Positions 1 through 18,784 of a stretch of 27,333 nucleotides of DNA are shown here, piece by piece. The stretch spans positions 1 through 27,333 of the forward strand of contig JBMFRC010000030.1 in assembly GCA_049968235.1 (NCBI GenBank), written 5' to 3'. Each line of letters opens with the position of its first letter. Position 1 is the stretch's first letter. This DNA comes from Candidatus Hydrogenedens sp. (GTDB lineage: Bacteria; Hydrogenedentota; Hydrogenedentia; Hydrogenedentales; Hydrogenedentaceae). A program made the position numbers and the translations under genes. The notes under the pieces are model-generated. The model was not told the origin of the DNA and did no database searches. It was given only the letters and a program-made list of their open reading frames with translations.

Positions 1-2480
1 CCACCACCGCCACCATGGCCACCAGCAAGATAAAGATTATTTGCAGGAGCCGTAAACTCTGCATGATTACCATTACTACCATTCCCTCCAGAAACTCCAC
101 TTGCACCAATTGTCCCATTTCCCCCATTAGAACCATTTCCCCCACTGCTTCCTGCTGTTACATTCACGCAGTTTTGGGCTGTGCTTCCAATCCCAATAGA
201 ACCACCTGTACCAACACTGCCACCATTTGCATTCGTGGGAGAAATTCCTCCTGGAGTCCCTCCTGTTCCTCCACTTCCTGCTATTCCCTGTTGACCGAAA
301 CCCAATTGCCCATTTGATCCATTCATTCCTACTTCTCCCGAATTGCCAGCAAGACCTATCCCCCCGGGAGTGCCAGGATTGGAAGTTCCATTTTGACCAT
401 TACCGCCATTACTATTATTTCCACCGGCTCCACCTGTCGCTTGAGCACCTCCATAACCACCCATTGAACCACCTGCTCCACCTGTTCCTCCAGCACCACC
501 CGAACCACCGTTTCCTCCTACGCCTCCACCAGCCCTGCCTGGAACGGTGCCCGATACATCCAGTGTCGTATTCCATGTTATATCTTTTGTAGCAGATATG
601 ACCAGCGGATTTATTCCGGAGACATTCACCGTAACTCCTGATGGAACATATATTGTTTCAAAGTCAAATTTGCTAACATAATTCCCGCTACCCATATCAA
701 CAGAACGACCTGAAATTGCAAGTCTTCCGTTTACCCTATAGAAAGGCTGATATATTTGATCTCCCGTATAAATTGTTAATATGTCTCCCGAATTTAAAAT
801 TAAATTTCCAAGTTTTCCATTGCTTCTATAAAGTTCATCGATTGTAAAGGTAGGTTCCTGAAATAAATAGTTTGAATATATCTCTGTGTAATTGGTATTT
901 CCTACAAGGTCAGTGCAAACCCCCGCATTTATAACAACATTTACATAAAAATCAGAACTTCGGTTTACATTAATATGAAATTGATAATTCGCTCCACTAC
1001 CTGAGAAATTTGTTATTTGTGCTGACCCATTACCGGATGTCATTAACATAATATCATCTGCAGTAAATCCTTTGACAGGCTCGCTAAATTCTACAGAAAA
1101 AATCGTATAGTCATTCGTTGTAGGCGATGGTGTCGTAGGTGTGATTTGAATAAATGGCCGAGAAGTATCTACTGTATAAACTTCTCCTGTTGTAAAATTC
1201 CCATTTCCACTTCCAAATATTACACCCAAATTATTTCCTAATATTCTCCAGTTATCATCAACAATAGTATCTCTATCTAAAAAATCGATACTGAAGTTAC
1301 CATTACCTGTTCCTCGATTAACCGTTACAGTTCTTGTGGTTCCACTTCCTGTAACCGATATAATAGATGTACCTGAGAACCCCGGAGCGTCAATTATAAA
1401 ATCAGCAGGAGTAACTACAGATACAGGTTCGCTAAATGTAACTATAAATTGTAAAGTTGGATTACGAGTGGGATTTTGAGCAGATATATCTCTTTTAATT
1501 GAAACAACGAAAGGTGGTGTTGTATCTATTAGCCAATCAAATATATGCTGAAATAAAGAATTTTCAAATATTATTCTATACCCTTCTTCATTCAGATGAA
1601 TAGGGTCTGTTCCATTATTTCCCATTGCGGACATTGGAGATGGGTAATCGATGTTTCCTCCCGGAAGGGGAGTATATGAAGGAGGATGCCCGGGGTAAGG
1701 AGTTGTATTCATCGGAAATGGTGGAAAAAAAGTATCTGTAAAAATTTCTCCTTCACTATTAGAGTTAGATTTAAGATAATATCCATTATGACCATACCAA
1801 TATTGTTGTAAACCAAAACTATGAACATATTCTGTTCTGTATCGAGTTGCAGAAATCAATATTTTTCTTAAACCCAATTCGTAAAAAGCCTGATTTAATT
1901 CTGCAGGTGTCGGATAGTCCATTTGTATATATAATTCCTGAGCTAATTCAACCCCTTCAAGAGCAAGTTCATAAATATTGATATAATCATAATCTGCCAA
2001 AGCAATTTTTACATCGGGTCGAATTGATAAAATATAATCCACTACAGTTTGAATATTTTGCTGTATCGTGTCAAAAATATCATTATTACCCCCAGGTTGA
2101 GGAAGCATCCCCTTTTTCCAATTTTTTAATATATCATTAAGACCAAGTGACAAGTAAACAATATCTGCAGTTGGATTATTCAATAATGCATTTTGGAGAG
2201 AATAAGTTCTTAGTGGCATATTGCTATCTTTAAAATTCGGGACATCACTTGCCCAATCCTCTGCTGTTGTTCCACTAACTGCTGTTGTATCTCCAATGAC
2301 ACTAACATCGTTAAAACCATAATAATTTAAAACATCACCCCAGACATTGTATTCCAAAATTTTTTCTGCCCAGTCATCTCCTACTACAAGTATTCTTGCT
2401 GTCTGTGCGTATCCATTTACAACAGCAAAAATAACAAAAATAAAAACGATAGAATAATTAAGATAGTAAAACCTTCTCAT
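1..2480 (-). CDS. Giant secreted/cell-surface protein, paralog A (partial: start at 2480, C-terminal part lies beyond the window start). Signal peptide, SGNH/GDSL-fold hydrolase-like domain with GDD in place of GDS, two Ig-like domains opening with DTTPP, a beta-solenoid-like segment and a Gly-rich GGxGGx tract
   Basis: Hand translation of the reverse strand from the ATG at 2478-2480. A GGAGGAAGG Shine-Dalgarno lies 4-12 nt upstream (reverse complement of 2484-2492). The protein reads MRRFYYLNYSIVFIFVIFAVVNGYAQTARILVVGDDWAEK...SLGLNDIL...DPIHLNEEGY...DTTPPFVVSI...SGSGTTRTVTVNRGTGNGNFSIDF...ITWNTTLDVSGTVPGRAGGGVGGNGGSGG...APANNLYLAGGHGGGGG and is still open at position 1. It is collinear at protein level with the + strand gene at 2702..8558. 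It is absent from the ORF track only because it has no in-window stop. The track ORFs 15..317 and 227..592 are antisense or frame-shifted low-complexity artefacts of it. Confidence 0.8.
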   Translation of the reverse strand, partial: MRRFYYLNYSIVFIFVIFAVVNGYAQTARILVVGDDWAEKILEYNVWGDVLNYYGFNDVSVIGDTTAVSGTTAEDWASDVPNFKDSNMPLRTYSLQNALLNNPTADIVYLSLGLNDILKNWKKGMLPQPGGNNDIFDTIQQNIQTVVDYILSIRPDVKIALADYDYINIYELALEGVELAQELYIQMDYPTPAELNQAFYELGLRKILISATRYRTEYVHSFGLQQYWYGHNGYYLKSNSNSEGEIFTDTFFPPFPMNTTPYPGHPPSYTPLPGGNIDYPSPMSAMGNNGTDPIHLNEEGYRIIFENSLFQHIFDWLIDTTPPFVVSIKRDISAQNPTRNPTLQFIVTFSEPVSVVTPADFIIDAPGFSGTSIISVTGSGTTRTVTVNRGTGNGNFSIDFLDRDTIVDDNWRILGNNLGVIFGSGNGNFTTGEVYTVDTSRPFIQITPTTPSPTTNDYTIFSVEFSEPVKGFTADDIMLMTSGNGSAQITNFSGSGANYQFHINVNRSSDFYVNVVINAGVCTDLVGNTNYTEIYSNYLFQEPTFTIDELYRSNGKLGNLILNSGDILTIYTGDQIYQPFYRVNGRLAISGRSVDMGSGNYVSKFDFETIYVPSGVTVNVSGINPLVISATKDITWNTTLDVSGTVPGRAGGGVGGNGGSGGAGGTGGAGGSMGGYGGAQATGGAGGNNSNGGNGQNGTSNPGTPGGIGLAGNSGEVGMNGSNGQLGFGQQGIAGSGGTGGTPGGISPTNANGGSVGTGGSIGIGSTAQNCVNVTAGSSGGNGSNGGNGTIGASGVSGGNGSNGNHAEFTAPANNLYLAGGHGGGG

Positions 2481-2701
2481 TTGCCTTCCTCCAATAATTA
2501 CCAGTCTTAATTAATATGATAAAACACATACAAAAATACCACTAATTAAATTATAGCGGAAATTGTATATAAAAGTCAATAGTTTTAAGAAAAAAAATTA
2601 TTATTTTTAAATTGTAGAATTATGTAAAAATTGATTTATGAATTTTTAATGTTTTATGTTAAAATAATAAAACAAAGGAATTAATTTACGAGAGAATGAA
2701 T
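2481..2701. promoter_or_regulatory. AT-rich divergent intergenic region expected to carry the promoters of both giant paralog genes
   Basis: A 221-bp, very AT-rich spacer between the two outward-facing start codons (2480 on the minus strand, 2702 on the plus strand). I could not place confident -35/-10 hexamers. Confidence 0.35.
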
Positions 2702-3286
2702 ATGTGTTTGTTCAAAAGATTTTTTCGAGTAATACTCTTATCCATTTTGTTATGAGGGCTTTCTTCCTTTGCTTATTCTGCAACACTTCGTATTTTAATT
2801 GTCGGGGACAGTTGGGCAGAAATTATTTGGAATGATTCTATTTGGCCCTATGTATTAAATTACTATGGATTGAGTGATTGGAGTGTTCAAGGTGATAAGG
2901 TTGCCATAGGCGGAACAACTGCCGAACATTTTGCAGATGACTGGCCTAATCCGCGAGATAACAATAACCCTGTGCGAACATATTCCCTTCGAAATGCAAT
3001 TATGAATAATCCAACGATTGATATAGTTCATCTCAGTTTAGGAGGGAATGACCTACTCTGGAAATGGAAAAATGGTATGCAACCGCAACCGGGTCCTAAT
3101 AACGATGTATTTGATGAAATAGAACAGGACCTGACTACTGTAGTGGATTACATTCTCTCGCTCCGTCCAGACATTAAAGCAGGTTTAGTTGACTATGACT
3201 TCGTAAATATATGGGAATTAGCCCTCGCAGGGAATCAGGCGGCAATTCTAATGCAGGCTAACTTAGATAATCCATACGCCAAGTGA
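2702..3286 (+). pseudogene. Disrupted N-terminal part of giant surface protein paralog B: signal peptide plus SGNH/GDSL hydrolase domain interrupted by an in-frame TGA (2753-2755) and a frameshift near 3274-3276
   Basis: ATG at 2702 gives MCLFKRFFRVILLSILL, then TGA, then in the same frame GLSSFAYSATLRILIVGDSWAEIIWND...SLGGNDLL... This aligns residue for residue with paralog A (ILVVGDDWAE, SLGLNDIL). Frame 1 ends ...LDNPYAK-TGA at 3284-3286. Homology to paralog A (DYPTPAELNQAF) continues in the +1 frame as HTPSELNSAF. The track ORF 2870..3286 is an internal-Met fragment that would lack both the signal peptide and the GDS block. Confidence 0.6.
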
Positions 3287-3287
3287 A

Positions 3288-6200
3288 TTGAACTCCGCTT
3301 TTGTGGAATTAGGCTGGCGTAAGCGGAATATTGCAAATACACGCAATCGTGTCGCATATATCCATAATTTCGGTTTGCAACAATATAGACACGGTCATCC
3401 GGGATTCTGGGATAAGGGACCTGTCTATCGTCCGGCGTTTGCAAGTAATATAAGTCCCATCCCTGGCGACCCAACTGATTATATCCCCTATCCCGGTGGA
3501 TTTATCGAATATCCTACTCCGCGAGTAGGGCTTGCAAATAATGGTAATGACCCGATACATTTAAATACAACAGGCTATCGTGATTTATGCGGGTATGCAT
3601 TATATCAATTTTTTGCAAATTGGTTAATTGACACGACACCACCGTTTGTGGCATCTATCACACGCAATCCATCTGCTCCTAATCCTACCAATACGCAAAC
3701 ATTAGAATTTATAGTCACATTTACAGAACCAGTAACAAATGTAACTCTGGATGATTTTGTCATTGAGGGGATAGGTTTCAGTGGTGCATCTTTGGTATCT
3801 ATTTCGGGTTCAGGAACGACACGAACAGTAACAATAAACCGAGGCACAGGACAGGGAGACATTAGTATAGACCTAATCGACCGTGATACGATTTACGACA
3901 TGAACTGGCGTGTGCTTGGCAATGCTCTGGGACAAAACTTTGGGGCAGGTAACGCGAATTACACCGCTGGCGAATACTATACAATCGATACAACCTCACC
4001 AACTGTTCTCATTACAGCGGATACGCCTCAACCTAATGAAACCACTTATGCAACATTCACTACAACTTTCAGTGAACCGGTTACAGGATTTACCGCAAGC
4101 GATATACAATTAACTGTGTCGGGTTCAGGTATTGCACAAGTTACAAATTTTTCGGGTAGTGGAGCAACGTACAATTTTGGCATCACCGTGGCAAGGAGTT
4201 CCGACATCTTCGTAACAGTTAATATTCCAAACGGTATTTGCTCGGATATAGCAGGAAATCCCAATCAAGGTTACACCTATGATAATTACTATTTTAAACT
4301 CCCGCCTTTTGCTTCCACAGATGTTTATCTAAGTAATGGTACGCTTGGTGATTTGACAGTAAATTCAGGAGATATACTTGTTTTCTATACTGGCACCAAC
4401 ACACTACCACCTTATTACCAAATTAACTCCGGAATGCAAATACAGGGACAGTTATTAGACATAGGGAGTGGCAACAAAGTGGGCAAGTTTAACTTTCAGT
4501 CAATTTATGTTCCATCAGGGGTGAGCATTACTGTTTCAGGAACAAATCCATTAGTAATAGCAGGAACGAAAGATATTACATGGAATTCGCCTGTGGATGT
4601 ATCCGGTGCCGTTCCTGGACGGGCAGGAGGTGGTGTAGGTGGTAGTAGTGGTTCTGGCGGGAATGGTGGTCCCGGTGGTGTAGGCGGAACTTCAGGCGGT
4701 TCTGGTGCTTTATCTGCTCCTGGTGGTGCTGGAGGTGATTATAGCAATGGTGGTCAAGGACAACCCGGGACATCCTATTCTGGATATGCAGGTGGTGCAG
4801 GTGGGCAAGGCTCTGTCGGTCAGAATGGCTCCGCAGGTGCCAGTGGAACAGTTGGTTTCAACGGTATGGGTAGTCCAGGCTCAGGAGGAGGTGGTGGCTC
4901 TGGTGGTCCAGCATCGCCTGTGTGGGGTAATGGCGGTTCAGCCGGGTCTGGTGGTCCATCGGGCGGAGGCGGAGGAGGTAAGACCTGCGAAAATGGAAAT
5001 CCAGGTGGAAATGATGGTGATGGCTACAATGGCGGAAACGCAAATCCCGGTGCTCCTGGAAATAACGGTCAAAACGGTTCACCTGGCGGAAATGCCTCAT
5101 TTATAGCGCCGGCGAATGACTTGACCTTAGCAGGTGGTGCAGGAGGAGGCGGAGGAGGCGGAGGAGGCGGAGGTAGTGGTGGTCAAGGTGGTGGAAAAGG
5201 AGGAGGTGGTGGTAGTGGTGGTAGTGGAGGCGGTGGAGGTGGAGCGTGGAATGCTCCATGTCATAATTGTTCAGGTTCCGCAATAGATGGTTTTGGTGGT
5301 GTTGGCGGAATTGGCGGAGCAGGTGGTGCCGGCGGAAACGGTGGAAATGGTGGTACTGCCCCTAAGGCAAGAGATGGTGGAAAGGGTGGTGATAGATGCG
5401 GTGTCATAGTCCTATCTGCTCGTGGACTTGTTGTATTTGGAGGACAAATCAACATTTCTGCAAGTGCACCTGGTAGCGGTGGAACGACAGTGCCTGCGAA
5501 CCCTGGCTCAGCAGGTGTCGACCCCGGCAACAACTGGGGTTGGGGAAGCGGTGGAGGTAATGGCACACAAGGATACTGGGCTAACTCAATAGGATGGTGT
5601 TTCCCTGTTGAGTCCAATGGCGGAAATGGCGGTTCCGGTGGTCGCGGCGGTAGGGGTGGAATAGGGGGTACTGGAGGGCAGAGTAGAACATCCGGTGCCG
5701 GTGGTATCGGCGGATTGGGAACACCAGGTATGTTTAAACTACACGGCAGTATAATTCTTACCTCTGGCGGATTGGTTGTATGCAATAACCATACCACGGA
5801 TGCAAGTTCGAATATTATCGGCAGATTTACACACATCTCAAATATGCGTTCACCGACCTACCCTGCTTTCTCTGATGATATCCTCATTGGTGCTACGCAG
5901 AATGATGCCGTGCTGAAAGCACCTGCCCCTTACAATTTACTAATATCTGCTCCACTAATTCCACAATTGGTTGGCGGACCGGCTACCGGCGGTTTCACTG
6001 AATCCGATTTCTGGAATAAATCGCAAGTGAATACACCGGGAATAGACCTGGTAGAGAAGGTGGAACTTTCCGGTTCCAATTCGCCATTCAAGGATTTTAA
6101 ACAAATATTCCTCGTTAATAACGGTGGTGTAGATGCAAAAGAAGTAGAACTTTATGTAGATGGTTCACCGACATACTATATCGGTATCATTCCGAGTGGT

Positions 6201-8558
6201 GCTATCTGGACAACGACAGTGCCTGAAGGAATTAATGTATCTTTCAAGGTTGGTATGGATATTACGCTAACTCCTTTGAAAACGGAAACATATCAAGGTG
6301 CTTCTTTCTCCATTAATGCTAATGTCATCGGTGGAACAGGAACAAAATCATATCGCTGGCTAAGAAACGGACAGGAAGTAGCAGTGACTCCAGCACCGTT
6401 ACTAACGATTAACCCTGTGAACCTGTCCGATACTGGCACATATACCATAGAGGTAACTGACAGCACACATACAGAAACAGGTGATAATAGCGTTAGTGTA
6501 TTAGTTTATCTACCTGTTGCTATCAATACTCAGCCTATTGGCGGAAACTACACGACCGGGCAAACATTATTACTCACAGTTTCTGCGACTGGCGGTAAAG
6601 GCTCTCTAAATTATGATTGGCGGAAAGGCGGTGTATCGTTAGGTACTCCGAATCTGCCATATTTAGATTTATCGCCAGCGGGTCCGGAGGATAACGGAAG
6701 TTACGATGTAGTCGTTTCGGATGAACTTGGGTCTATTCCATATGGACAGGTTATCTCCAGTTCCGCATTGATTACAGTTAACGACCCATTAGCGGTTTAT
6801 GGACCTGCAGGACAGACTACAGTATATGAGAATACACCGAATGTGCAGTTAACTGTTCTGGCAAGTGGTGGTGTATCACCGTATAGATACGAGTGGTTTA
6901 AAGACCTTAATGAAAATGGTATCTTAGACGAAGGCGAGGTATTAAGCAATACCCCGCCATTCTCTGGTGTGGATACAGACACCCTGACTGTATCATCTCC
7001 AACTATAAGCAATAGCGGAGTATATCGTTGTATTGTTACAGATGATAACGGCAATGGTACAAGTGTGGTATCGCAAGCCGGAGTATTGAATGTTGTTCCT
7101 CATCTGACTATCGCAGTTCAACCACAAAATGTAGTTCGGAATCCAGGACAGAGTGTTCAGTTTACTGTAGAAATCATCGGTGGTATCCCTCCGTTGACAT
7201 ACACATGGCGTCGAGCCAGCATCGGCAATCTACCTCCTGAACAACAGCCCGGTGGAAATGTTTTGACACTGAACAATCTGAACGAGACAGATGAAGATTT
7301 CTACGATGTAATTATTCAAGACAGCGGGACTGATAGTATTACATCCGATGCAGTATTTTTGATGATAGTGGATAACCCACTTACGATTACTTCTCAGCCA
7401 ACAGACTTACGGGCGTATGTCGGAGAGTATCCATCACATACTCTTCAGGTAGTTGCAAATGGTGGATATGGAACTATCCACTACCTATGGATGAAGGATA
7501 ATCAGCCTGCCCCCGGTGTGAATAACCAATCCATCTACTTTATTACACCATTGACCACGAATGTCTCAGGGACTTATTACTGTGTGGTTAGCGATGATGT
7601 CCCAGAGAATAATATCAACTCGGATTCTGTAGAAGTATTAATTGCGGAGCATATGCAGTTTGTAAATGACCTACCTTCGGTGAAATACGCACCATATAAT
7701 GAACCGTTGACTTTAACTGTCTTGCTATCGGGCGGTTTAGGGAATCTTAATTACGAATGGTGGTTTAATAATGGCAATGGTTATACCCAGATAAGTGGCA
7801 ATTCTCCAACGATTAATTTGGGGAATCCCACAAGTATCAATACAGGGTTGTATTATGTACGTGTATTTGATGAGCGCGAAGAACTGCAATCCATAGTTTG
7901 TCAAATCTATGTAGGTGAAGATTTAGCGATTACACAACAACCTCAGGAAGTATTGATTTATATAGATGAAGGTCCTAATTTCCAGTTGGATGTTCAGACC
8001 ACCGATGGCTTTGGAAATAAACAATACACATGGTATCGTAATAATGAACTGGCTCCTGGAATAAATAATGAAGCAGTTTATGTATCCCCTCAAATAGAAC
8101 CATTATTGTCAGGTAATTATTGGGTTGAAGTTCGGGATGAAAAAGATACAGTACGGTCTGAACAAGCACGAGTTGCTATTAGTTCTCATGCAGAATTTCT
8201 CCGCCAACCTACAGGTGGAACAGTAGGAGAAGGAAATACCTGGCGATTTGAGGTAGAAGTAACGGGTGGGTTAATTGAATTGCATTATCAATGGAAATTC
8301 CAGCCGTTAGGTAAAGTGAAAGAAATTCAAAATATTGGCACAGATTCACCTATATTGGAAATCGCGGATATTAGTTCGAATGATGCAGGTTTATATTGGG
8401 TTGAAGTTACAGATGCTCGTGAGACAATTTCCTCAAATCAAGTTATATTAAATGTAGAAAAAGATATACCCTCGCATAATTTGTTAGGTATTACAATCAT
8501 AATTATTTCTATCATATCGATATTTTTCTATATTAAACAGTCCAAAGCAAAAGTATAA
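3288..8558 (+). CDS. Large intact ORF (1756 codons) for the remainder of giant surface protein paralog B: tail of the SGNH domain (DPIHLN His block), 2 Ig-like domains, a beta-solenoid-like segment, a ~380-aa Gly-rich GGxGGx tract, 8 tandem ~90-aa Ig (I-set-like) repeats and a C-terminal TM anchor
   Basis: ORF track 3288..8558. It begins at TTG one nucleotide after the TGA of the upstream fragment. Motifs read directly: DTTPPFVASI and DTTSPTVLI Ig-like openings. Gly-rich GGVGGSSGSGGNGGPGG...GGAGGAGGNGGNGG. Eight repeats each carry a GGxGxxxYxW motif (YRWLRNG, YDWRKGG, YEWFKD, YTWRRAS, YLWMKDN, YEWWFNN, YTWYRNN, YQWKFQP at about 270-nt spacing) and an SGxYxCxVxD-type motif (DTGTYTIEVTD, NSGVYRCIVTDD, VSGTYYCVVSDD, DAGLYWVEVTDA ...). 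The C-terminus is NLLGITIIIISIISIFFYIKQSKAKV. Whether it is expressed is uncertain because the upstream part is disrupted. Confidence 0.7.
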   Translation: MNSAFVELGWRKRNIANTRNRVAYIHNFGLQQYRHGHPGFWDKGPVYRPAFASNISPIPGDPTDYIPYPGGFIEYPTPRVGLANNGNDPIHLNTTGYRDLCGYALYQFFANWLIDTTPPFVASITRNPSAPNPTNTQTLEFIVTFTEPVTNVTLDDFVIEGIGFSGASLVSISGSGTTRTVTINRGTGQGDISIDLIDRDTIYDMNWRVLGNALGQNFGAGNANYTAGEYYTIDTTSPTVLITADTPQPNETTYATFTTTFSEPVTGFTASDIQLTVSGSGIAQVTNFSGSGATYNFGITVARSSDIFVTVNIPNGICSDIAGNPNQGYTYDNYYFKLPPFASTDVYLSNGTLGDLTVNSGDILVFYTGTNTLPPYYQINSGMQIQGQLLDIGSGNKVGKFNFQSIYVPSGVSITVSGTNPLVIAGTKDITWNSPVDVSGAVPGRAGGGVGGSSGSGGNGGPGGVGGTSGGSGALSAPGGAGGDYSNGGQGQPGTSYSGYAGGAGGQGSVGQNGSAGASGTVGFNGMGSPGSGGGGGSGGPASPVWGNGGSAGSGGPSGGGGGGKTCENGNPGGNDGDGYNGGNANPGAPGNNGQNGSPGGNASFIAPANDLTLAGGAGGGGGGGGGGGSGGQGGGKGGGGGSGGSGGGGGGAWNAPCHNCSGSAIDGFGGVGGIGGAGGAGGNGGNGGTAPKARDGGKGGDRCGVIVLSARGLVVFGGQINISASAPGSGGTTVPANPGSAGVDPGNNWGWGSGGGNGTQGYWANSIGWCFPVESNGGNGGSGGRGGRGGIGGTGGQSRTSGAGGIGGLGTPGMFKLHGSIILTSGGLVVCNNHTTDASSNIIGRFTHISNMRSPTYPAFSDDILIGATQNDAVLKAPAPYNLLISAPLIPQLVGGPATGGFTESDFWNKSQVNTPGIDLVEKVELSGSNSPFKDFKQIFLVNNGGVDAKEVELYVDGSPTYYIGIIPSGAIWTTTVPEGINVSFKVGMDITLTPLKTETYQGASFSINANVIGGTGTKSYRWLRNGQEVAVTPAPLLTINPVNLSDTGTYTIEVTDSTHTETGDNSVSVLVYLPVAINTQPIGGNYTTGQTLLLTVSATGGKGSLNYDWRKGGVSLGTPNLPYLDLSPAGPEDNGSYDVVVSDELGSIPYGQVISSSALITVNDPLAVYGPAGQTTVYENTPNVQLTVLASGGVSPYRYEWFKDLNENGILDEGEVLSNTPPFSGVDTDTLTVSSPTISNSGVYRCIVTDDNGNGTSVVSQAGVLNVVPHLTIAVQPQNVVRNPGQSVQFTVEIIGGIPPLTYTWRRASIGNLPPEQQPGGNVLTLNNLNETDEDFYDVIIQDSGTDSITSDAVFLMIVDNPLTITSQPTDLRAYVGEYPSHTLQVVANGGYGTIHYLWMKDNQPAPGVNNQSIYFITPLTTNVSGTYYCVVSDDVPENNINSDSVEVLIAEHMQFVNDLPSVKYAPYNEPLTLTVLLSGGLGNLNYEWWFNNGNGYTQISGNSPTINLGNPTSINTGLYYVRVFDEREELQSIVCQIYVGEDLAITQQPQEVLIYIDEGPNFQLDVQTTDGFGNKQYTWYRNNELAPGINNEAVYVSPQIEPLLSGNYWVEVRDEKDTVRSEQARVAISSHAEFLRQPTGGTVGEGNTWRFEVEVTGGLIELHYQWKFQPLGKVKEIQNIGTDSPILEIADISSNDAGLYWVEVTDARETISSNQVILNVEKDIPSHNLLGITIIIISIISIFFYIKQSKAKV
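5142..5173 (+). repeat. Perfect 9-bp tandem repeat (GGAGGAGGC) x3 plus a partial copy inside the Gly-rich coding tract
   Basis: Read directly: ggaggaggc ggaggaggc ggaggaggc ggagg. It encodes GGG units in frame and is a plausible slipped-strand length-variation site. Confidence 0.7.
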
Positions 8559-8572
8559 TTTTTTATAAAATT

Positions 8573-8606
8573 TTGGGGAACTTTTATGATCCCCAAGACA
8601 ATTTTT
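8573..8606 (+). terminator. Putative intrinsic terminator downstream of the paralog B ORF
   Basis: Inverted repeat ttgggga (8573-8579) / tccccaa (8590-8596) with a 10-nt loop, followed by gacaattttt (T-run 8602-8606). It starts 15 nt after the TAA at 8556-8558. Confidence 0.4.
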
Positions 8607-8796
8607 ATTATTACAGAAATAATGGAACTGTGATTTTGTGATTTATCTATTAAAGAGTAAATATGAAGGTGTCATTTTTATAAAGCGATAATTATATTGA
8701 ATGTGAAAAAAAGAATAAAGGGATAAATGCATCAAACATTAGAGGGTGGGCTTCTACATAAATAAAATTCCAACTAAATATTTGCAGAGAAGTTTA

Positions 8797-11772
8797 TCAG
8801 ATGTCGGATTTCTTCTTAAAACCTACACTTTTAGGACTTGGTATTGAAGTTCTTGGGACTATGATAGATTCTTTTTGTTGTATAGTTTGAGTTTCTGGAG
8901 TTACATTCTGAGTTTTCATTTCTATATTTTGGGATGATTGGGAGGGTTCTTTTTGTTGAAGTAGCGAAGAATTCGGGCTGGCATATTTGGTGGTAGGTAT
9001 TTTTGTCTCTTTATTTAATTGGAGAACTTTTAACATTTGTTCAATATACTCTGCAATTTCAATACGTTTTGATAGTAGCAAATTGGGATTTCTTGAAAAA
9101 TTAACTAAGTCGGGACAGAATTCTTGAAAGTTATAAACTTTTTCTGCTTGTTGTAACAATTCAGGATTATTTCCGGTATTTTTAAGTTCTTTGATTAGTT
9201 TTGAGAATATATTTAAGTAATCATAATCTTCAATTCCATCGCGAATTATTTCCCAGCGGATAGAATTTAGAGGTCCTTCTTTTCCAGGATATACCAGAAA
9301 TCCATCTCCATTTGTGGGAATTACATCGAGAGGACATTTTTGTGGGTCATTTTCCCTGGAATAATTGATACACCAGTAATGGACACCCTTAATTCCCAAC
9401 ATCCATGTCTGCCAGAAGAAAATTCTATGCTCAATCCCTGCAAAATCAAGGAAGAAATTGGCATAGGGACGAGGAGGTGCATGATTTACACACCACCAGA
9501 CCTCTTTTCCCGCCTGAATTTTTTCCAGTATGTATCTGTTAAATTGTGTATCCATCACAGGGCTATGAATACACCAGATATCTACATTCTCAGGAAGTAT
9601 TGGATTTAGTCCTCGTGTGGTTATCATCAACGGTAGGTCGGGAGTCTGAATTTTCCATTGAGTAATTGTATTTAATAATTTTTCTTTATCTTCTTCTTTC
9701 GGATATTCCCATAACGGGACAAAAGATTTTTTTAGCAGGTTGTTTGTTTGCAAAAAAGAATAGAGTGCTTTTAATTGTTCCGGTTGTTGTATTAATTGGG
9801 ATGGTATTGTAAAGGTATTTATACCTTCTTTAATAAGCCGTTGTATTTTCGGTAATATATTAGAAAGTTCCTGGGAATAATCGGAAGTTTTGGGTAAGGG
9901 TAGTTGTGTAAGTTCGCGAAGTGTTATTCGGTGTTCGATAGCATTTTGTAGGTATGCTGAAGCCACTGCGGAAGCATTCGGTTTATCTCCTGTAAGCACC
10001 TGAGAACTTTTGAGAGCATTTTCCCATGAAAACCCAAAATCTGTTTTTAGAGTGGGAATGTCCGGTAAAGCAAATTCGAACACATGAATATTTAGTTCCA
10101 ATTCTACAGGGTCGAAAGAGTTACTCTGTAATTCAAAAATTCCTTGATAGTCACCGGGGGGAAGGGTTTCAGGAGCGTATAATGTTATCCAGAAAGCGGA
10201 AGTCGTCTGTGGCGGAATTTTTATTGTGTTCGTTGGAGCAAGCATATCTGGCCAATAACCTGTGGGTCCTTCGTAGTAAGAAGGAATAACCACAGGATGA
10301 TATTTTACTTCATAGGTGGAAACGACATCTTTCGGCATGGACATTCCTGTTTGACGATTTTTAAGTTCAGAAAGAATTCCCTGAATGGTGCATGTGTCAT
10401 TCCCATTATTCCTTACAACAATTTGAATGGATTCCCGTTCCTTTCTTGCAAGGAATATTTTTAGTGCTGAATCCGTTTGATTAGAAGGTTCCGGATTATC
10501 TTCCGGGAAAACCTTAAAAAGAGATGATTCCGACCAGATTTTTGTTGTGGCATTCTGGAATAATAAACTTCTTTCTAATTTTCGAGGACCTTTGTCCAAT
10601 GCTTTGGTAGCATCTGTCCATGGAGGAAATGGTTCTTCATTCGTCGTTAAAGATGTTTCGGTACTGCCCACAACGAATTGAGTATCAATTCCTCCATGAG
10701 GCGAACCTGTTTCTTTACCGAGATAATACGGTTTTCCGTTCTGTTCTAACTGAGCAAGGAAATCATACCTCCCCGGTCCCGGTGCTGTCCATTCGTAAGT
10801 GCAACGAATAAGTATGTTGGGTTGAAAATCGAATTTCTTTGTGGGTAAATGCCATACTCTACCATCATGTCCAAGTATTCGTGATTGGATACGCATATTT
10901 TTGAAGTCACGGTTTGGAGAGAGAAGCAAAATCAGTTTTCCATCTTCTTTGTAATCTAATTGGCAGGCTATTTCTTCCGAAGCGAAATTAACATGGCTAA
11001 GTCCACGAACTATTGAAAGTTTATAAATAGTTGACCATGTATCACCGGGTTTTAGTAAAGATGGAAGAAACCATGATTGCACTCCTTGTTTACTTTCCTG
11101 AGGCTCCCATACGGCTAAAAAGGAATGAAGCATATCCGCATGGAATATAAGACAAACATTGGCTAAGAGTTCCTGATCTGTATAGGCAGACCAATTTCGA
11201 GATGCAACCCAATGATGACTGGAATTGATTGTCATAATACCTTCTGTGGTAGGCAGTTCTAAACGGTCAGATTCATTCCATTTTCCCCCAGGGTTAATGG
11301 AGTTGGCTACCCATGGAGCTATCCACTGACTTTCGTTCCCTTCGTTTTTAACTTCTAATTTGATAGAAAGTCCTGCTACAAAGGGTGATAATTGAATGGT
11401 TCGCTTTACTTTTAGCCCTTGTATATTGGGTCCTTCGCAATTATAGGTATAGCGAAACTCTTTTGTCCCGTCAGGTAATGTACTTTGCTCCCATTGCTCA
11501 TTGATTTTCCGATTGGGAACATAAAAATTGCCTACACCAAAGCCTTCCTGAAACATTCCCAGAGGACCTGCAATGTTATCCGCTGGGTTTGTCAAACCAA
11601 GTTGAGTAATGACTCCCTGTTTAGCAGGATCTATTTTTAACCACATATAGTGAGATTTTACTTCTGTCTCAGTATCTATGTTTTGTGATGTGGTATTGAA
11701 CGAGATAAAAATTACAAACAGTTGTAGAAATATTGCAATATACGCTCTTGTTTCAGTAGATAAGTCCATCAT
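8797..11772 (-). CDS. Large secreted protein (991 aa) with an N-terminal signal/TM segment; putative glycoside-hydrolase-like protein carrying a DUF4091-type C-terminal region
   Basis: ORF track. N-terminus MMDLSTETRAYIAIFLQLFVIFISF is hydrophobic. A C-terminal-third block WCINYSRENDPQKCPLDVIPTNGDGFLVYPGKEGPLNSIRWEIIRDGIEDYDYLN matches my recollection of the DUF4091 signature (DGxLxYPG...SIRxExxRDGxEDYEYL). Stop is TGA. The family assignment is from memory, not a search. Confidence 0.55.
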   Translation of the reverse strand: MMDLSTETRAYIAIFLQLFVIFISFNTTSQNIDTETEVKSHYMWLKIDPAKQGVITQLGLTNPADNIAGPLGMFQEGFGVGNFYVPNRKINEQWEQSTLPDGTKEFRYTYNCEGPNIQGLKVKRTIQLSPFVAGLSIKLEVKNEGNESQWIAPWVANSINPGGKWNESDRLELPTTEGIMTINSSHHWVASRNWSAYTDQELLANVCLIFHADMLHSFLAVWEPQESKQGVQSWFLPSLLKPGDTWSTIYKLSIVRGLSHVNFASEEIACQLDYKEDGKLILLLSPNRDFKNMRIQSRILGHDGRVWHLPTKKFDFQPNILIRCTYEWTAPGPGRYDFLAQLEQNGKPYYLGKETGSPHGGIDTQFVVGSTETSLTTNEEPFPPWTDATKALDKGPRKLERSLLFQNATTKIWSESSLFKVFPEDNPEPSNQTDSALKIFLARKERESIQIVVRNNGNDTCTIQGILSELKNRQTGMSMPKDVVSTYEVKYHPVVIPSYYEGPTGYWPDMLAPTNTIKIPPQTTSAFWITLYAPETLPPGDYQGIFELQSNSFDPVELELNIHVFEFALPDIPTLKTDFGFSWENALKSSQVLTGDKPNASAVASAYLQNAIEHRITLRELTQLPLPKTSDYSQELSNILPKIQRLIKEGINTFTIPSQLIQQPEQLKALYSFLQTNNLLKKSFVPLWEYPKEEDKEKLLNTITQWKIQTPDLPLMITTRGLNPILPENVDIWCIHSPVMDTQFNRYILEKIQAGKEVWWCVNHAPPRPYANFFLDFAGIEHRIFFWQTWMLGIKGVHYWCINYSRENDPQKCPLDVIPTNGDGFLVYPGKEGPLNSIRWEIIRDGIEDYDYLNIFSKLIKELKNTGNNPELLQQAEKVYNFQEFCPDLVNFSRNPNLLLSKRIEIAEYIEQMLKVLQLNKETKIPTTKYASPNSSLLQQKEPSQSSQNIEMKTQNVTPETQTIQQKESIIVPRTSIPSPKSVGFKKKSDI

Positions 11773-14171: not shown

Positions 14172-14969
14172 ATGAAAAAGAAAGCAGACCCTATCTGGGC
14201 GAGAATTCGTGAAGAAGCACAGGAAGGTATTCAAAAAGAGCCATTGCTTGCAAGTTTTTTGTCATCCACCATATTATCACACAAGACTTTGGAGGATGTA
14301 TTAAGTTTCCATTTGGCAGGGAAATTAGAAAGCATCACTTTGCCCGCGGTGAGTTTACGTGAATTGTTTGACGAAGCCTTCGCAAATGAATCCGGAATTG
14401 GAGAGGCTATTCGTGCGGACTTGATTGCCGTTCATGACCGAGACCCCGCATGCCGGTTATTCTGCCAGCCTTTATTATATTTCAAAGGTTTTCAGGCGTT
14501 GCAATCATATCGAGTTGCTCATTATTACTGGAATAGGGAACGGTTTCATCTGGCTTTATTTTTACAAAGCAGAATGTCAGAGGTGTTCGGGATTGATATA
14601 CATCCTGCTGCAAGAATCGGCAAAGGGATATTGATTGACCATGGAACAGGGGTGGTTATTGGAGAAACCGCTGTAATTGGGAATAATGTATCTTTATTAC
14701 ATGAAGTAACCTTAGGAGGAACGGGGAAAGTTCGTGGAGATAGACATCCCAAGATTGGAGATGGAGTATTAATTGCTGCGGGTGCAAAGATATTAGGAAA
14801 TGTTCATGTAGGGGAAGGTGCAAAAGTTGCTGCATGTGCCGTTGTTCTCAGGGATATTCCTCCTCATACCACAGTTGCGGGAGTACCTGCAAAACCGATT
14901 GGTCCTACTTCTGAAGAGGCTCCAGCCCTTGTTATGGACCAATTCTTTTCCAATGGTGAGGGACTTTAA
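14172..14969 (+). CDS. cysE: Serine O-acetyltransferase (CysE), left-handed beta-helix hexapeptide acyltransferase
   Basis: MKKKADPIWARIREEAQ is the classic CysE N-terminus. Hexapeptide repeats IGETAVIGNNVSLLHEVTLGG...IGDGVLIAAGAKILGNV. The track start 14151 is a TTG; the ATG at 14172 is preferred. Confidence 0.8.
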   Translation: MKKKADPIWARIREEAQEGIQKEPLLASFLSSTILSHKTLEDVLSFHLAGKLESITLPAVSLRELFDEAFANESGIGEAIRADLIAVHDRDPACRLFCQPLLYFKGFQALQSYRVAHYYWNRERFHLALFLQSRMSEVFGIDIHPAARIGKGILIDHGTGVVIGETAVIGNNVSLLHEVTLGGTGKVRGDRHPKIGDGVLIAAGAKILGNVHVGEGAKVAACAVVLRDIPPHTTVAGVPAKPIGPTSEEAPALVMDQFFSNGEGL

Positions 14970-16024
14970 GGAGTTAAGTTCATTGTTTTTAAATCTTCTG
15001 TTAACCATTCCGCAAGATAACTGTAAATAATCGGTTTGGGGTGTCCATCAGGATATTTATGTTCGTTCTTTTTTTCCAATCCATTTAATATTTCTTTTTT
15101 ACTACTGTCTCTAAAATAATCAATAACAATAAATTCTTTTTTCCCCTTTATATAATCATAAATGCCCGGAACTGCCTCCGCAGAACCTGGAAAAAACAGG
15201 AAAACCATTTGAATCTCTGGAAACCGTTTTGAAAGGTTTTCGCGTGTTTTTAGTAATAATAGGTAAAGTAATTCAAACTGGTCTTTTGTAAATTCGGGAG
15301 GGTAATCAATACCCTTTATGTCAAATATCATAGAAATTAAAGTAGATTTATAAAGCATTTCTGAGATAAAGCATGAATAAGGTTTGGTATCAGCAAAGGT
15401 ACCTAAGTTCAAAATTTCACCTTTTCCCATTTCAATATGGGGAAGATATTTGCCCCATCTACCAATGATAGACCATGAGCCGATTAACCTTTTTAAGTGA
15501 CTTCCAATAAAAGTATAGACAACAACAGTAGGAAGTGCTTTTATATCATCTGTAAAATCTGAATTTAATGTGGAGAGATATATTTCTTGAGGAGAATATC
15601 CGGGGACTCCATAGTTATACACTTTACAATGGGGATTTCGCATAGCAAATTGGGATGGTAATGTCTCGTTATCATTGACCTCTGTACCAAAAGTGAACGA
15701 ACAACCTATAAAAAGATAATTTACTTTTTTTTCTGTTTCTGAAGATGAATACGTATTTCTTCTTCCTTTTTTATCTATGGAGTAATTATATGTTACCGAA
15801 GGAAGGGAGCCTTTTTTTATTACTGCGTAGCCTTTTATTCCCGCATTGAGTTTTTTCGGTTTAGTAATATCTGTATGGGTAAGTATAGAAGGGTTTTCCT
15901 GTATAGTCAATTTAAAATATCTATTGTATATGGGTCGTGAAATCATCTCAGAAATAAATAATATACCTATTAAAAATGCACAGCCTAAAAGAAAAGCAAT
16001 TAGATTAGACAAATATTTTTTCAT
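14966..16024 (-). CDS. Membrane-anchored SGNH/GDSL-fold hydrolase-like protein (hypothetical)
   Basis: ORF track. N-terminal TM segment MKKYLSNLIAFLLGCAFLIGILFI. FIGCSFTFG resembles SGNH block I. DGHPKP resembles block V (DGxHP). Its stop overlaps the cysE stop on the opposite strand inside a TTTAA palindrome (14966-14969). Confidence 0.6.
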   Translation of the reverse strand: MKKYLSNLIAFLLGCAFLIGILFISEMISRPIYNRYFKLTIQENPSILTHTDITKPKKLNAGIKGYAVIKKGSLPSVTYNYSIDKKGRRNTYSSSETEKKVNYLFIGCSFTFGTEVNDNETLPSQFAMRNPHCKVYNYGVPGYSPQEIYLSTLNSDFTDDIKALPTVVVYTFIGSHLKRLIGSWSIIGRWGKYLPHIEMGKGEILNLGTFADTKPYSCFISEMLYKSTLISMIFDIKGIDYPPEFTKDQFELLYLLLLKTRENLSKRFPEIQMVFLFFPGSAEAVPGIYDYIKGKKEFIVIDYFRDSSKKEILNGLEKKNEHKYPDGHPKPIIYSYLAEWLTEDLKTMNLTP

Positions 16025-18171: not shown

Positions 18172-18528
18172 GTGCCCGGAAAATATGGCTTTCCTAAAGA
18201 ATATCGCCTTCGAAAGAAGAAGGAATTTGAAGATGTTTTCCAGAAGGGAAAGCGTATTACCGGGGAAGGAATGGTTTGCTATTGGTTTTCTGATGAACAG
18301 ATGGGTAACAAATTGGGGATAGTAGTATCCCGAAAGGTAGGACAGTCGGTGAAAAGGAATCGAATTAAAAGATATGTTCGGGAATTTTATAGGTTAAACC
18401 GACCTCATTTTCGTGAGAATGGTGTTTTGGTTGTTGTTGCCCGTGTAGGACTGTCCGAATGGAATCATCAACAGATTGATGCCGAATTGGCAAGGTTACT
18501 TAAAACCGGGGGAATACTCAATGGCTAA
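18172..18528 (+). CDS. rnpA: Ribonuclease P protein component
   Basis: ORF track. Basic protein with the NRIKRYVREFYR block typical of RnpA. Immediately downstream of rpmH, the conserved order. Confidence 0.8.
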   Translation: MPGKYGFPKEYRLRKKKEFEDVFQKGKRITGEGMVCYWFSDEQMGNKLGIVVSRKVGQSVKRNRIKRYVREFYRLNRPHFRENGVLVVVARVGLSEWNHQQIDAELARLLKTGGILNG

Positions 18529-18784
18529 GGTTGCTATTTTGATTATTACAGCCTATCAAAAAGGAATCTCCCCCTGGTTAGGACAGCATTGTCGATTTTA
18601 TCCAAGTTGTTCTAACTATGCTATTGAGTCATTCCAGAGGCATGGGTTTCTTAAAGGTCTCGTTTTGACCTTTTGGCGTATTTTAAGATGTCAGCCCTTT
18701 TGTAAAGGAGGGTATGACCCGGTACCTATGAAATTCCCTGCCCATAAATCGCATCACTCATGTAATGACACCCTTATGAAGTAA
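18521..18784 (+). CDS. yidD: Membrane protein insertion efficiency factor YidD
   Basis: MAKVAILIITAYQKGISPWLGQHCRFYPSCSNYAIESFQRHGFLKG matches the YidD/DUF37 signature. The ATG at 18521 overlaps the rnpA TAA (ATGGCTAA). The track start 18476 lies inside rnpA and is rejected. Confidence 0.8.
   Translation: MAKVAILIITAYQKGISPWLGQHCRFYPSCSNYAIESFQRHGFLKGLVLTFWRILRCQPFCKGGYDPVPMKFPAHKSHHSCNDTLMK

What the first reader, a model, noticed from the sequence alone, without database searches (positions are those of the whole stretch)
1..8558. Head-to-head pair of giant, deeply diverged paralogous surface proteins with a chimeric SGNH / Ig / PGRS-like Gly-rich / 8x Ig-repeat architecture
The reverse strand of 1..2480 is absent from the ORF track because it runs off the window. 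Hand translation shows it encodes a protein collinear with the + strand gene at 2702..8558. Both have a signal peptide, an SGNH block I (ILVVGDDWAE vs ILIVGDSWAE) and blocks III and V (SLGLND/SLGGND, DPIHLN). Both have DTTPPFV(V/A)SI Ig-like domains, an ...ITWN..DVSG.VPGRAGGGVGG.. entry into a Gly-rich tract and APAN(N/D)L(Y/T)LAGG. Protein identity is roughly half while the DNA has diverged, so this is an old duplication kept in divergent orientation around a shared promoter region. An esterase domain joined to a PE-PGRS-like GGxGGx tract, eight tandem I-set-like Ig repeats and a C-terminal TM anchor does not match any named adhesin family I know. The pair looks like an accessory surface or adhesion module.
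Basis: seen in the sequence. Interest (0 to 1): 0.6.

Follow-up and report, generated by a model that had tools for sequence, protein, structure and literature searches.

The report
Paired giant surface-protein genes, one dead
Two back-to-back genes in an uncultured Hydrogenedens bacterium encode related ~1,950-residue cell-surface proteins of an undescribed family, but the copy that is complete in this window is a decaying pseudogene, and the intact copy has lost the catalytic serine of its esterase-like head.

Summary
The core observation holds. The minus strand of 1..2480 is an open 826-codon frame. It is collinear with the + strand product of 2702..8558 at 56% amino-acid identity.

The + strand "gene" is not an ORF. 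It has a TGA at codon 18 (2753-2755) and a 1-nt insertion (A at 3276). Two sibling assemblies (98.9-99.8% identical) share the TGA and carry further, different lesions, so paralog B is a decaying pseudogene here.

The window is a whole contig of a Candidatus Hydrogenedens MAG. Paralog A is cut off by the contig end inside a poly-Gly codon run.

The divergent pair recurs in five other lineages, and one copy or the other is often knocked out, never both.

The architecture is: signal peptide, SGNH-fold domain, two Big_12 domains, a 645-aa module that matches no Pfam family, eight Ig_3 repeats, and a conserved tail of [IVL]P motif, TM helix and basic cluster. The 645-aa module consists of beta-helix-like strands plus about 370 aa of (GGX)n.

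All A orthologues have GDD instead of the GDS nucleophile, yet the domain is under strong purifying selection (dN/dS about 0.06).

The resemblance to PE-PGRS is compositional only.

Most likely these are redundant surface adhesin or substrate-capture proteins.

The parts
1..2480 (-). Paralog A, 5' part (826 codons, intact). It is truncated by the contig end inside a poly-Gly codon run. It equals NCBI MGC8739633.1 (ACP5UA_13455, partial).
   Evidence: Open frame. P0290 is 827 aa on a 27333-nt contig. The C-terminal 1128 aa lie on a separate contig in a sibling MAG (L004/P0272).
2406..2480 (-). Paralog A signal peptide (MRRFYYLNYSIVFIFVIFAVVNGYA).
   Evidence: Read from the sequence; inferred Sec-type signal.
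1527..2405 (-). Paralog A SGNH-fold domain. It has GDD in place of the GDS nucleophile; blocks II (G), III (GLND) and V (DPIH) are kept.
   Evidence: AF2 pLDDT 93 / pTM 0.91. Foldseek against PDB returns only SGNH/GDSL hydrolases. Lipase_GDSL_2 scores 28.4 bits, below the 32.9 cut-off. Family consensus. dN/dS is 0.06-0.08.
861..1526 (-). Paralog A, two Big_12-type bacterial Ig-like domains (starting DTTPPFV.. and DTSRPFI..).
   Evidence: Pfam Big_12 at residues 438-531, 26.2 bits against a cut-off of 27. More than 100 database hits cover only this 20-30% of A, nearly all carrying precomputed Big_12 (PF19078) domains.
3..860 (-). Paralog A, start of the central module: beta-helix-like strands, then the (GGX)n Gly-rich tract up to APANNLYLAGG.
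   Evidence: Collinear with B 534-817.
2481..2701 (.). AT-rich divergent intergenic region. It has a promoter-like TTGACT-18-TATAAT site (2579->2550, minus strand) for A and both ribosome-binding sites. Blocks are conserved across five lineages.
   Evidence: The promoter scan count is no higher than in shuffled sequence, so the support comes from conservation.
2702..8558 (+). Paralog B, a pseudogene. The full-length 1951-codon gene remnant is disrupted twice near its 5' end.
   Evidence: Sibling assemblies L003 and L006 share the TGA and carry further independent lesions. No protein product is on record for the 1756-aa ORF.
2753..2755 (+). In-frame TGA at codon 18, in the hydrophobic core of the signal peptide. 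It is the founder lesion, shared by all three sibling assemblies.
   Evidence: TGA is an ordinary stop codon in this window (GH123 and ADH genes).
3276..3276 (+). Inserted A (CCAT[A]CG) that causes the frameshift. It is present in the window and in L003 and absent from L006, which instead has TTG->TAG at 3288-3290.
   Evidence: Intact orthologues read NNPSPSELNSAF.
2780..3629 (+). Paralog B SGNH-fold domain remnant. The catalytic GDS serine is retained, along with GGND and DPIH.
3630..4301 (+). Paralog B, two Big_12-type Ig-like domains.
   Evidence: Pfam Big_12, 39.6 bits against a cut-off of 27.
4302..6236 (+). The 645-aa central module: beta-helix-like strands, (GGX)n tracts with conserved Cys and an FxAPAN.L.LAGG motif, more beta-helix-like strands, and a terminal beta-sandwich. 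It matches no Pfam family.
4620..5732 (+). Gly-rich tract (44% Gly) with runs of 3-7 GGX triplets.
   Evidence: Gly autocorrelation at lag 3 is 0.43, against 0.00 +/- 0.05 in shuffles. Short DNA tandem repeats lie at 5141-5354.
6270..8456 (+). Eight tandem Ig_3 / I-set-type Ig repeats, each about 90 aa.
   Evidence: Pfam Ig_3 154.6 bits and I-set 75.2 bits. The repeat motif GG..Y.W is found by regex at 7 positions plus a variant at about residue 1768 (FGNKQYTW, read from the sequence).
8457..8555 (+). C-terminal tail: a conserved [IVL]P-x-x-[NG] motif, a TM helix and a Lys/Arg cluster. It looks like a sorting signal.
   Evidence: The tail is conserved in all full-length relatives. No curated NCBIfam -CTERM model reaches its threshold.

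Best explanation
Shown:
- The window is a complete contig from a Candidatus Hydrogenedens MAG. It carries a divergently oriented pair of anciently duplicated genes.
- Each gene encodes a ~1,950-aa exported protein with this layout: Sec signal peptide, SGNH-fold domain, two Big_12 Ig-like domains, a 645-aa beta-helix-like / (GGX)n glycine-rich module, eight Ig_3 repeats, and a C-terminal [IVL]P motif followed by a TM helix and a basic tail.
- Paralog B (2702..8558) is a recently inactivated, decaying pseudogene in this species. Its founder lesion is a TGA at codon 18, followed by independent frameshifts and nonsense mutations in sibling populations.
- Paralog A (1..2480, truncated by the contig end) is the surviving copy.
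- All A orthologues replace the SGNH nucleophile Ser by Asp, yet the domain is under strong purifying selection.

Inferred:
- The proteins are anchored by their C-terminus at the cell envelope. The Ig repeats and the glycine-rich/beta-helix module would form a long stalk that holds the SGNH head away from the cell.
- B-type heads probably act as esterases, most plausibly O-deacetylating glycans. A-type heads probably only bind the ligand.
- The two paralogs are functionally overlapping adhesin or substrate-capture proteins. This would explain why either one, but not both, is lost in different lineages.
For: Paralogy and collinearity:
- 56.4% identity over 803 aa.
- Sister clades in an NJ tree.
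- The pair is conserved in L001, L002, L007, L008 and L009.

Source:
- P0290 (MGC8739633.1) lies on a 27333-nt contig of Candidatus Hydrogenedens sp..

Pseudogene:
- TGA at codon 18 and an inserted A at 3276.
- L003 (99.8% identical) shares both lesions and adds a +C after 5836 and a W->stop at 8398.
- L006 (98.9% identical) shares the TGA, lacks the insertion, and has TTG->TAG.
- B SNPs between siblings are 9 nonsynonymous to 4 synonymous.
- TGA is a normal stop codon here.
- dN/dS of B against intact orthologues is 0.03-0.08, so the inactivation is recent.

SGNH domain:
- AF2 pLDDT 93, and only SGNH/GDSL structural hits, with E down to 2.5e-7.
- 469 relatives in the exhaustive search. Standalone relatives pass the Pfam threshold.
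- Ser, Gly, Asn, Asp and His are near-invariant in the family. 130 of 149 representatives have GDS.
- GDD is present in all six A-type orthologues, with dN/dS 0.06-0.08.

Central module:
- pLDDT 83.6.
- Gly lag-3 periodicity.

Ig repeats.

Reciprocal loss:
- B is disrupted in the window species, in L001 and in L011.
- A is disrupted in L008 (frameshift) and L009 (TGG->TAG).
- Both copies are intact in L007.
- Both are never disrupted together.
Against: - No experiment, expression data or localisation data exist for any family member.
- The organism appears to be diderm (its YidC has a periplasmic domain). A C-terminal TM anchor alone would leave the protein in the inner membrane, and the route to the cell surface is unknown. 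The tail matches no curated sorting-signal model.
- The esterase substrate is a guess from the closest folds and from glycoside hydrolase neighbours.
- An Asp in place of the Ser nucleophile could support altered chemistry rather than binding only.
- The 3D arrangement of the Gly tract could not be inspected. Only summary statistics of the AF2 model were available, and the alignment behind it had 14 sequences.
- The 'never both lost' pattern rests on six genomes, several with only partial gene copies visible.
Confidence: 0.7

Rival explanations
1. Paralog B is functional. On this view the TGA and the frameshift are assembly or sequencing artefacts, or they are bypassed by recoding (TGA read as an amino acid, or programmed frameshifting).
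For: MAG consensus sequences can contain errors. B's sequence is otherwise well conserved: 79-82% identity to intact orthologues, with low dN/dS.
Against: - The TGA is present in three independently assembled MAGs that differ by SNPs.
- The siblings carry additional, different lesions: +C, W->stop and TTG->TAG.
- TGA terminates other genes in the window.
- The TGA lies in the signal-peptide core, and no in-frame start follows it until 2870, which is past catalytic block I.
- The indel is not in a slippery or homopolymer context.
Confidence: 0.04
2. The lesions are reversible phase variation: a contingency locus that switches each paralog on and off.
For: One copy or the other is disrupted in 5 of about 13 gene copies seen across lineages. 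That is an unusually high rate and is typical of surface proteins under fluctuating selection.
Against: - None of the lesions lies in a simple-sequence repeat or homopolymer tract. They are point nonsense mutations and single-base indels in complex sequence.
- The window lineage has accumulated 2-4 lesions per copy, which is not reversible.
Confidence: 0.06
3. The proteins are homologues of mycobacterial PE_PGRS proteins, as the first reader's 'PGRS-like' label suggests.
For: GGX triplet runs with strong lag-3 periodicity. High-confidence but DSSP-blank modelled segments, as expected for polyglycine-II helices. PGRS domains are proposed to form PGII sandwiches of glycine-rich triplets (PMC9436101).
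Against: - No PE domain or any other Pfam hit in the region.
- Secretion is by an N-terminal Sec signal, not ESX.
- The phylum is Hydrogenedentota, not Mycobacterium.
Confidence: 0.02
4. The protein is a secreted beta-helix exoprotein of the two-partner-secretion or autotransporter type (an adhesin or toxin released or displayed through an outer-membrane partner), rather than a C-terminally anchored stalk.
Against: - The beta-helix-like part is internal, not an N-terminal TPS domain.
- There is no Haemagg_act, autotransporter beta-barrel or TpsB-like hit in the protein or among its neighbours.
- The C-terminus is a TM helix with a basic tail, not a beta-barrel.
Confidence: 0.05
5. The pair encodes structural envelope or S-layer-like proteins whose role is architectural, not adhesion or catalysis.
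For: Very large, Ig-rich, membrane-tailed proteins conserved across a lineage. The catalytic Ser is dispensable in the A lineage.
Against: - Either copy is readily lost, which is unlike an essential envelope component.
- The B lineage and all outgroups keep a complete SGNH catalytic set.
- The head domain is the most strongly constrained part.
Confidence: 0.1

Closest known systems
SGNH/GDSL hydrolases (e.g. Geobacillus GDSL esterase 7e16, Phocaeicola sialate O-acetylesterase 7pzg, Neisseria PatB 7tlv, PAF-AH 1wab, CE3 esterase 5b5s)
   Same: The N-terminal domain has the SGNH alpha/beta/alpha fold. It also has the family's conserved blocks I (GDS), II (G), III (GGND) and V (DxxH).
   Different: - It scores below the Pfam gathering score (28.4 against 32.9).
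- It carries about 90 aa of insertions, including a Pro-rich loop between blocks III and V.
- The A lineage has Asp instead of the Ser nucleophile.
- It is fused to a ~1,600-aa stalk.
PGRS domains of mycobacterial PE_PGRS proteins (and other polyglycine-II structures)
   Same: Glycine-rich GGX triplet runs of 3-7 triplets with 3-residue periodicity. The AF2 model is confident there but shows no alpha or beta secondary structure. This matches the PGII-sandwich description in PMC9436101.
   Different: There is no PE domain, no ESX signal, and a different phylum. The Gly tract is embedded in beta-helix-like strands with conserved cysteines. No sequence homology is detectable.
Right-handed beta-helix adhesins (TpsA proteins HMW1, FHA, EtpA; autotransporter passengers)
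   Different: There is no TPS domain at the N-terminus, no beta-barrel translocator and no TpsB neighbour. Anchorage is by a C-terminal TM tail.
Giant Ig-repeat surface adhesins of Gram-negative bacteria (own knowledge: e.g. the SiiE / LapA / BapA type)
   Same: Size of about 2,000 aa, arrays of Ig-like domains acting as a stalk, and a functional head.
   Different: These proteins use a Sec signal plus a C-terminal TM/basic tail instead of a T1SS signal. Their repeats are eukaryote-type Ig_3/I-set. They have an esterase-fold head and a Gly-rich module.
PEP-CTERM / IPTL-CTERM-type C-terminal sorting signals
   Same: A tripartite tail: a short conserved Pro-containing motif, a TM helix and an Arg/Lys cluster. 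It is conserved in every family member.
   Different: No curated model reaches its threshold. The best scores are IPTL_CTERM 13.4 against 20.5 and PEP_CTERM 12.1 against 16. No sortase-like gene is seen nearby.

Membership tests
SGNH/GDSL hydrolase superfamily | Three-layer alpha/beta/alpha SGNH fold | tested here: met
   AF2 model of A residues 24-320: pLDDT 93, pTM 0.91. The 57 Foldseek PDB hits at E<=0.001 shown are almost all SGNH/GDSL enzymes.
SGNH/GDSL hydrolase superfamily | Block I GDS(L) serine nucleophile | tested here: inconclusive
   Met in B and in all B-type and outgroup proteins (GDSW). Not met in A or in any of the six A-type orthologues (GDDW).
SGNH/GDSL hydrolase superfamily | Block II Gly, block III GxND Asn, block V DxxH | tested here: met
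   G47, N92, D269 and H272 are invariant in the six domains and at least 90% conserved in the 52-sequence family alignment.
SGNH/GDSL hydrolase superfamily | Score above the Pfam Lipase_GDSL_2 gathering threshold | tested here: not met
   The best score is 28.4 bits against a cut-off of 32.9. All six domains hit below threshold. Standalone homologues P0131 and P0132 pass, with 36.7 and 33.2 bits.
PE_PGRS (Mycobacterium) | N-terminal PE domain followed by a PGRS domain | tested here: not met
   No PE hit in Pfam. The N-terminus is a Sec signal followed by an SGNH domain.
PE_PGRS (Mycobacterium) | Glycine-rich GGX triplet repeats forming PGII helices | tested here: inconclusive
   Triplet periodicity is shown and the model is confident but DSSP-blank there. 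The PGII geometry itself could not be inspected.
Bacterial Ig-like domain Big_12 (PF19078) | Pfam score above threshold | tested here: met
   B scores 39.6 bits against a cut-off of 27. A scores 26.2 bits, just below it.
Ig_3 / I-set immunoglobulin repeats | Pfam score above threshold, in tandem copies | tested here: met
   Ig_3 154.6 bits and I-set 75.2 bits. Eight repeats were counted.
Two-partner secretion TpsA / autotransporter adhesins | N-terminal TPS domain or C-terminal beta-barrel translocator, with a transporter partner | tested here: not met
   There is only internal fold similarity. No Pfam hit for such domains appears in the protein or among the window's genes.
PEP-CTERM / IPTL-CTERM / LPXTG and other curated C-terminal sorting domains | NCBIfam model score above its cut-off | tested here: not met
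   Eight C-terminal tails were scanned at E<=10. All matches fall below their cut-offs, and the window's own tail matches nothing.

The most novel reading that the evidence does not exclude
The ~2,000-aa proteins would define a family specific to Hydrogenedentota. Its 645-aa central module would be a new fold type: a beta-helix scaffold carrying (GGX)n polyglycine-II-like tracts, which would make it a PGRS-like domain outside mycobacteria. The duplicated pair would be kept under fluctuating selection, for example from phage or predator recognition of the exposed head. Lineages would then repeatedly knock out one paralog while keeping the other, and the GDS (catalytic) and GDD (binding-only) heads would serve as alternative surface states.
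Probability: 0.2. Interest if true: 0.6.

Novelty: new variant of a known kind. Interest (0 to 1): 0.4.

Why it matters
Hydrogenedentota have no well-characterised cultured representative, and nothing is known about their cell surface.

This family is a conserved, very large, modular surface protein. It has an enzyme-fold head, and its central 645-aa module is absent from Pfam and from the PDB at the sequence and Foldseek level.

Three features are testable:
- whether (GGX)n tracts outside mycobacteria adopt polyglycine-II structure;
- whether an SGNH domain with Ser replaced by Asp has become a lectin-like binding head;
- why one of two old paralogs is repeatedly inactivated.

For annotation, the practical point is that 2702..8558 should be called a pseudogene. 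The contig breaks in these MAGs fall in the poly-Gly codon runs of these genes.

Tried and rejected
- **Source contig via B's product.** The look-up of encoding contigs with the 1756-aa B ORF found nothing. This fits B not being called as a gene.
- **Word-indexed search, SGNH domain alone.** The search for homologous proteins with the 297-aa SGNH domain returned no hit, not even the identical P0001. That is a tool-sensitivity failure. The exhaustive HMMER search then found 469 relatives.
- **PDB sequence searches.** Searches with the domain and with a 6-sequence profile gave only E of about 1-2.
- **Curated family scans.** NCBIfam on both proteins gave nothing. NCBIfam on the C-terminal tails gave only sub-threshold generic TM/basic-tail matches. 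Pfam on the central module gave nothing at E<=5.
- **Fold searches for the central module.** Foldseek against PDB had a best E of 1.1. The afdb50 library was unavailable.
- **TGA recoding.** Rejected, because TGA ends other genes in the window.
- **Slipped-strand phase variation.** Rejected, because no lesion lies in a repeat.
- **Rosetta-stone split.** In L005 a nearby 573-aa GDSL-like gene might have been the detached head. It is unrelated to the A/B head.
- **Other scans.** Rfam found no RNA family in the window. PADLOC on the low-GC helicase gene gave nothing.
- **Literature.** Searches found no description of this family.
Full report
**Observation**

The minus strand of 1..2480 translates as 826 codons with no stop, and it runs off the window start.

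The + strand region 2702..8558 is not one ORF. The mechanical ORF list gives 2870..3286 (138 aa) and 3288..8558 (1756 aa). Translating from the ATG at 2702 shows a TGA at codon 18 (2753-2755), inside the hydrophobic core of the signal peptide. The frame is then lost after ..LDNP.

Removing one base restores a 1951-codon reading frame. Its product aligns collinearly with the minus-strand product at 56.4% identity over 803 aa. DNA identity over the aligned codons is 58% and third-position identity 38%. The duplication is therefore old, with no recent gene conversion.

**Source**

The product of 1..2480 is MGC8739633.1, [quoted passage not shown]. It lies on a contig of exactly 27,333 nt, so the window is a whole MAG contig and the rest of paralog A cannot be recovered from it.

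The neighbours are chromosomal housekeeping genes: GH123, two Zn-ADHs, CysE, a T2SSE-type ATPase, rnpA-yidD-yidC-jag-mnmE, and a ResIII helicase.

In a sibling MAG, the C-terminal 1128 aa of A sit on a separate 5-kb contig (L004/P0272). They are followed by a phosphoribosyltransferase gene and a sigma-70 gene. L001 has ORFs of the same lengths (173 and 282 aa, minus strand) downstream of its A-type gene, though I did not scan those two against Pfam. The break falls in a poly-Gly codon run.

**Paralog B is a pseudogene**

- L003 is a sibling MAG, 99.8% identical over 10.1 kb, with 18 SNPs and 1 indel. It has the same TGA and the same extra base. It also has a +C after 5836 and a TGG->stop at 8398.
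- L006 is a third sibling, 98.9% identical. It has the TGA but lacks the extra base, which identifies the window's lesion as an inserted A at 3276 (CCAT[A]CG). L006 instead has TTG->TAG at 3288-3290.

A shared founder lesion followed by independent secondary lesions is the signature of decay, not of assembly error.

SNPs in B between the window and L003 are 9 nonsynonymous (one of them nonsense) to 4 synonymous. TGA is a normal stop codon in the window. After the TGA, the next in-frame start is at 2870, beyond catalytic block I.

Against intact orthologues, B shows dN/dS of 0.03-0.08, so the inactivation is recent.

**The pair in other genomes**

Scans of genome and metagenome collections found the same divergent arrangement in L001 (the same contig as L010), L002, L007, L008 and L009.

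An NJ tree places the A-type and B-type copies as sister clades. More distant full-length relatives (P0121, P0125, P0190, P0161, P0274) fall outside both. The duplication therefore occurred in the common ancestor of these Hydrogenedens-like lineages.

The spacer is 220-260 bp and AT-rich. It has conserved blocks that include a TTGACT-18-TATAAT site and both ribosome-binding sites. In L001 a GntR/LacI-type regulator gene lies between the two genes.

Intactness by lineage:

| Lineage | A-type copy | B-type copy |
|---|---|---|
| Window species | intact | dead |
| L001 | intact | 1-nt deletion at the SGNH/Big junction |
| L002 | intact | intact over the visible 926 aa |
| L007 | intact (1971 aa) | intact (1963 aa) |
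| L008 | frameshifted | intact over 1037 aa |
| L009 | TGG->TAG at about codon 410 | intact |
| L011 | not adjacent | TAA at codon 537 |

That makes five independent knockouts among about 13 gene copies, none in a repeat tract, and never both copies in one genome.

**Architecture**

(i) *Signal peptide.* A Sec-type signal peptide is read from the sequence.

(ii) *SGNH-fold head.*
- The six heads all hit Lipase_GDSL_2 below threshold (best 28.4 bits against 32.9).
- An exhaustive HMMER search found 469 representatives at E<=1e-3. Many are ~290-aa standalone proteins that pass the Pfam threshold, and one is named SGNH/GDSL hydrolase by NCBI.
- An AF2 model built on 52 sequences has pLDDT 93 and pTM 0.91. 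In the PDB it matches only SGNH/GDSL enzymes: GDSL esterases, sialate O-acetylesterase, PatB, PAF-AH and CE3.
- The family conserves Ser (block I), Gly (block II), Asn (block III) and Asp/His (block V).
- B-type and outgroup proteins have GDS. All six A-type orthologues have GDD.
- The GDD domain has dN/dS of 0.06-0.08, so it is still functionally constrained.

(iii) *Two Big_12-type Ig-like domains*. These account for essentially all of the >100 hits in the word-indexed homology search.

(iv) *A 645-aa central module* (window 4302-6236).
- It matches no Pfam family at E<=5 and has no Foldseek match in the PDB.
- The AF2 model, built on 14 sequences, has pLDDT 83.6 and pTM 0.69.
- The ~370-aa Gly tract (44% Gly) is modelled confidently but without DSSP secondary structure.
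- Gly autocorrelation at lag 3 is 0.43-0.52, against 0.00 +/- 0.05 in shuffles, with runs of 3-7 GGX triplets. This is what polyglycine-II helices would give, as proposed for PGRS domains (PMC9436101). I could not inspect the coordinates.
- The module occurs directly after a signal peptide, without the SGNH and Big domains, in P0273, P0275 and P0277. It is therefore an independent evolutionary unit.

(v) *Eight Ig_3/I-set repeats*.

(vi) *A C-terminal tail.* It consists of an [IVL]P-x-x-[NG] motif, a TM helix and a Lys/Arg cluster. It is conserved in all relatives but falls below threshold for every curated -CTERM sorting model.

**Interpretation**

What is shown:
- a conserved divergent paralog pair;
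- the domain composition;
- the pseudogene state of B;
- the Ser->Asp change in A, under purifying selection;
- reciprocal knockouts across lineages.

What is inferred:
- C-terminal anchoring, with the Ig repeats and the Gly/beta-helix module acting as a stalk that presents the SGNH head.
- Esterase activity of the GDS heads, probably glycan O-deacetylation. This rests on the closest folds and on the glycoside hydrolase genes seen next to the pair (GH123 here; a fucosidase-like gene in L002).
- Ligand binding without catalysis by the GDD heads.
- Functional overlap between the paralogs, which would explain why either can be lost.

How the protein would cross an outer membrane is unknown.

**Comparison with known families**

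- The head belongs structurally to the SGNH superfamily. It is sub-threshold for Pfam and, in A, lacks the nucleophile.
- The Gly tract resembles PGRS in composition, periodicity and probably conformation, but it is not a PE_PGRS homologue.
- The beta-helix similarity to TpsA and autotransporter proteins is at the fold level only.
- No named adhesin family covers the whole protein.

I rate this a new variant of a known kind: a giant modular surface adhesin or enzyme-display protein. Interest is moderate, and for this particular window it is reduced because the only complete copy is dead.

Noticed in passing
window 4169-4282 (B, second Big_12 domain): 17 of the 30 substitutions between the window and sibling L006 fall in this 114-nt stretch. 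Between species, the Big_12 and pre-Gly parts of B have much higher dN (0.11-0.19) and saturated dS compared with the SGNH head (dN 0.03-0.06). This suggests a recombination tract or a variable patch.
   Followed up: partly
window 1-20 (contig end), with L003, L004 and L006: All contigs carrying paralog A end inside or near the Gly-rich tract. The 5' and 3' halves of A lie on separate contigs in the sibling MAG. The gap falls in a run of poly-Gly codons, so these genes systematically break short-read assemblies.
   Followed up: partly
L009 10162-10164; L008 about 7000; L011 5939-5941: There are independent inactivating mutations in other lineages: an A-type TGG->TAG (L009), an A-type frameshift (L008) and a B-type TAA (L011). 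In L011 the B-type gene has no A-type neighbour within the 4.3 kb upstream.
   Followed up: partly
L001 2868-3962: A 364-aa regulator with a GntR HTH and a LacI-type sugar-binding domain is inserted between the two divergent paralogs in this lineage only.
   Followed up: no
window A vs L007A and B vs L007B: Synonymous divergence of B between the window and L007 (dS about 1.7) is about twice that of A (dS 0.66-0.91), although the genes are adjacent. The two paralogs may have different histories, for example allele exchange.
   Followed up: no
window 18172-23433: The cluster rnpA-yidD-yidC-jag-mnmE is present. This cluster usually lies next to the chromosomal replication origin. YidC has a periplasmic domain, which implies a diderm envelope.
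   Followed up: no
window 23935-27333: This is a low-GC stretch (27-29% against about 38% elsewhere). It carries a 1005-aa ResIII/DEAD/SNF2-type helicase gene with no PADLOC defence-system match. It may be foreign DNA.
   Followed up: partly
window 14966-16024 (-): A 352-aa ORF with no Pfam or PADLOC match lies directly downstream of a T2SSE-type secretion or pilus ATPase gene (16117-17646).
   Followed up: no
L005 (3.5-Mb contig ERZ21831104 ctg97496l) 8001-11324: P0275 is a 1107-aa relative made only of signal peptide, central Gly/beta-helix module, Ig repeats and tail, with no SGNH or Big domains. It lies beside an 1130-aa S8 peptidase gene and a purH-like gene. The nearby 573-aa GDSL-like protein is unrelated to the A/B head.
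   Followed up: partly
window 8797-11772 (-): The gene convergent with B encodes a 991-aa GH123-family glycosidase. Its recognised domains start only at about residue 425, so the N-terminal ~400 aa are unassigned.
   Followed up: no
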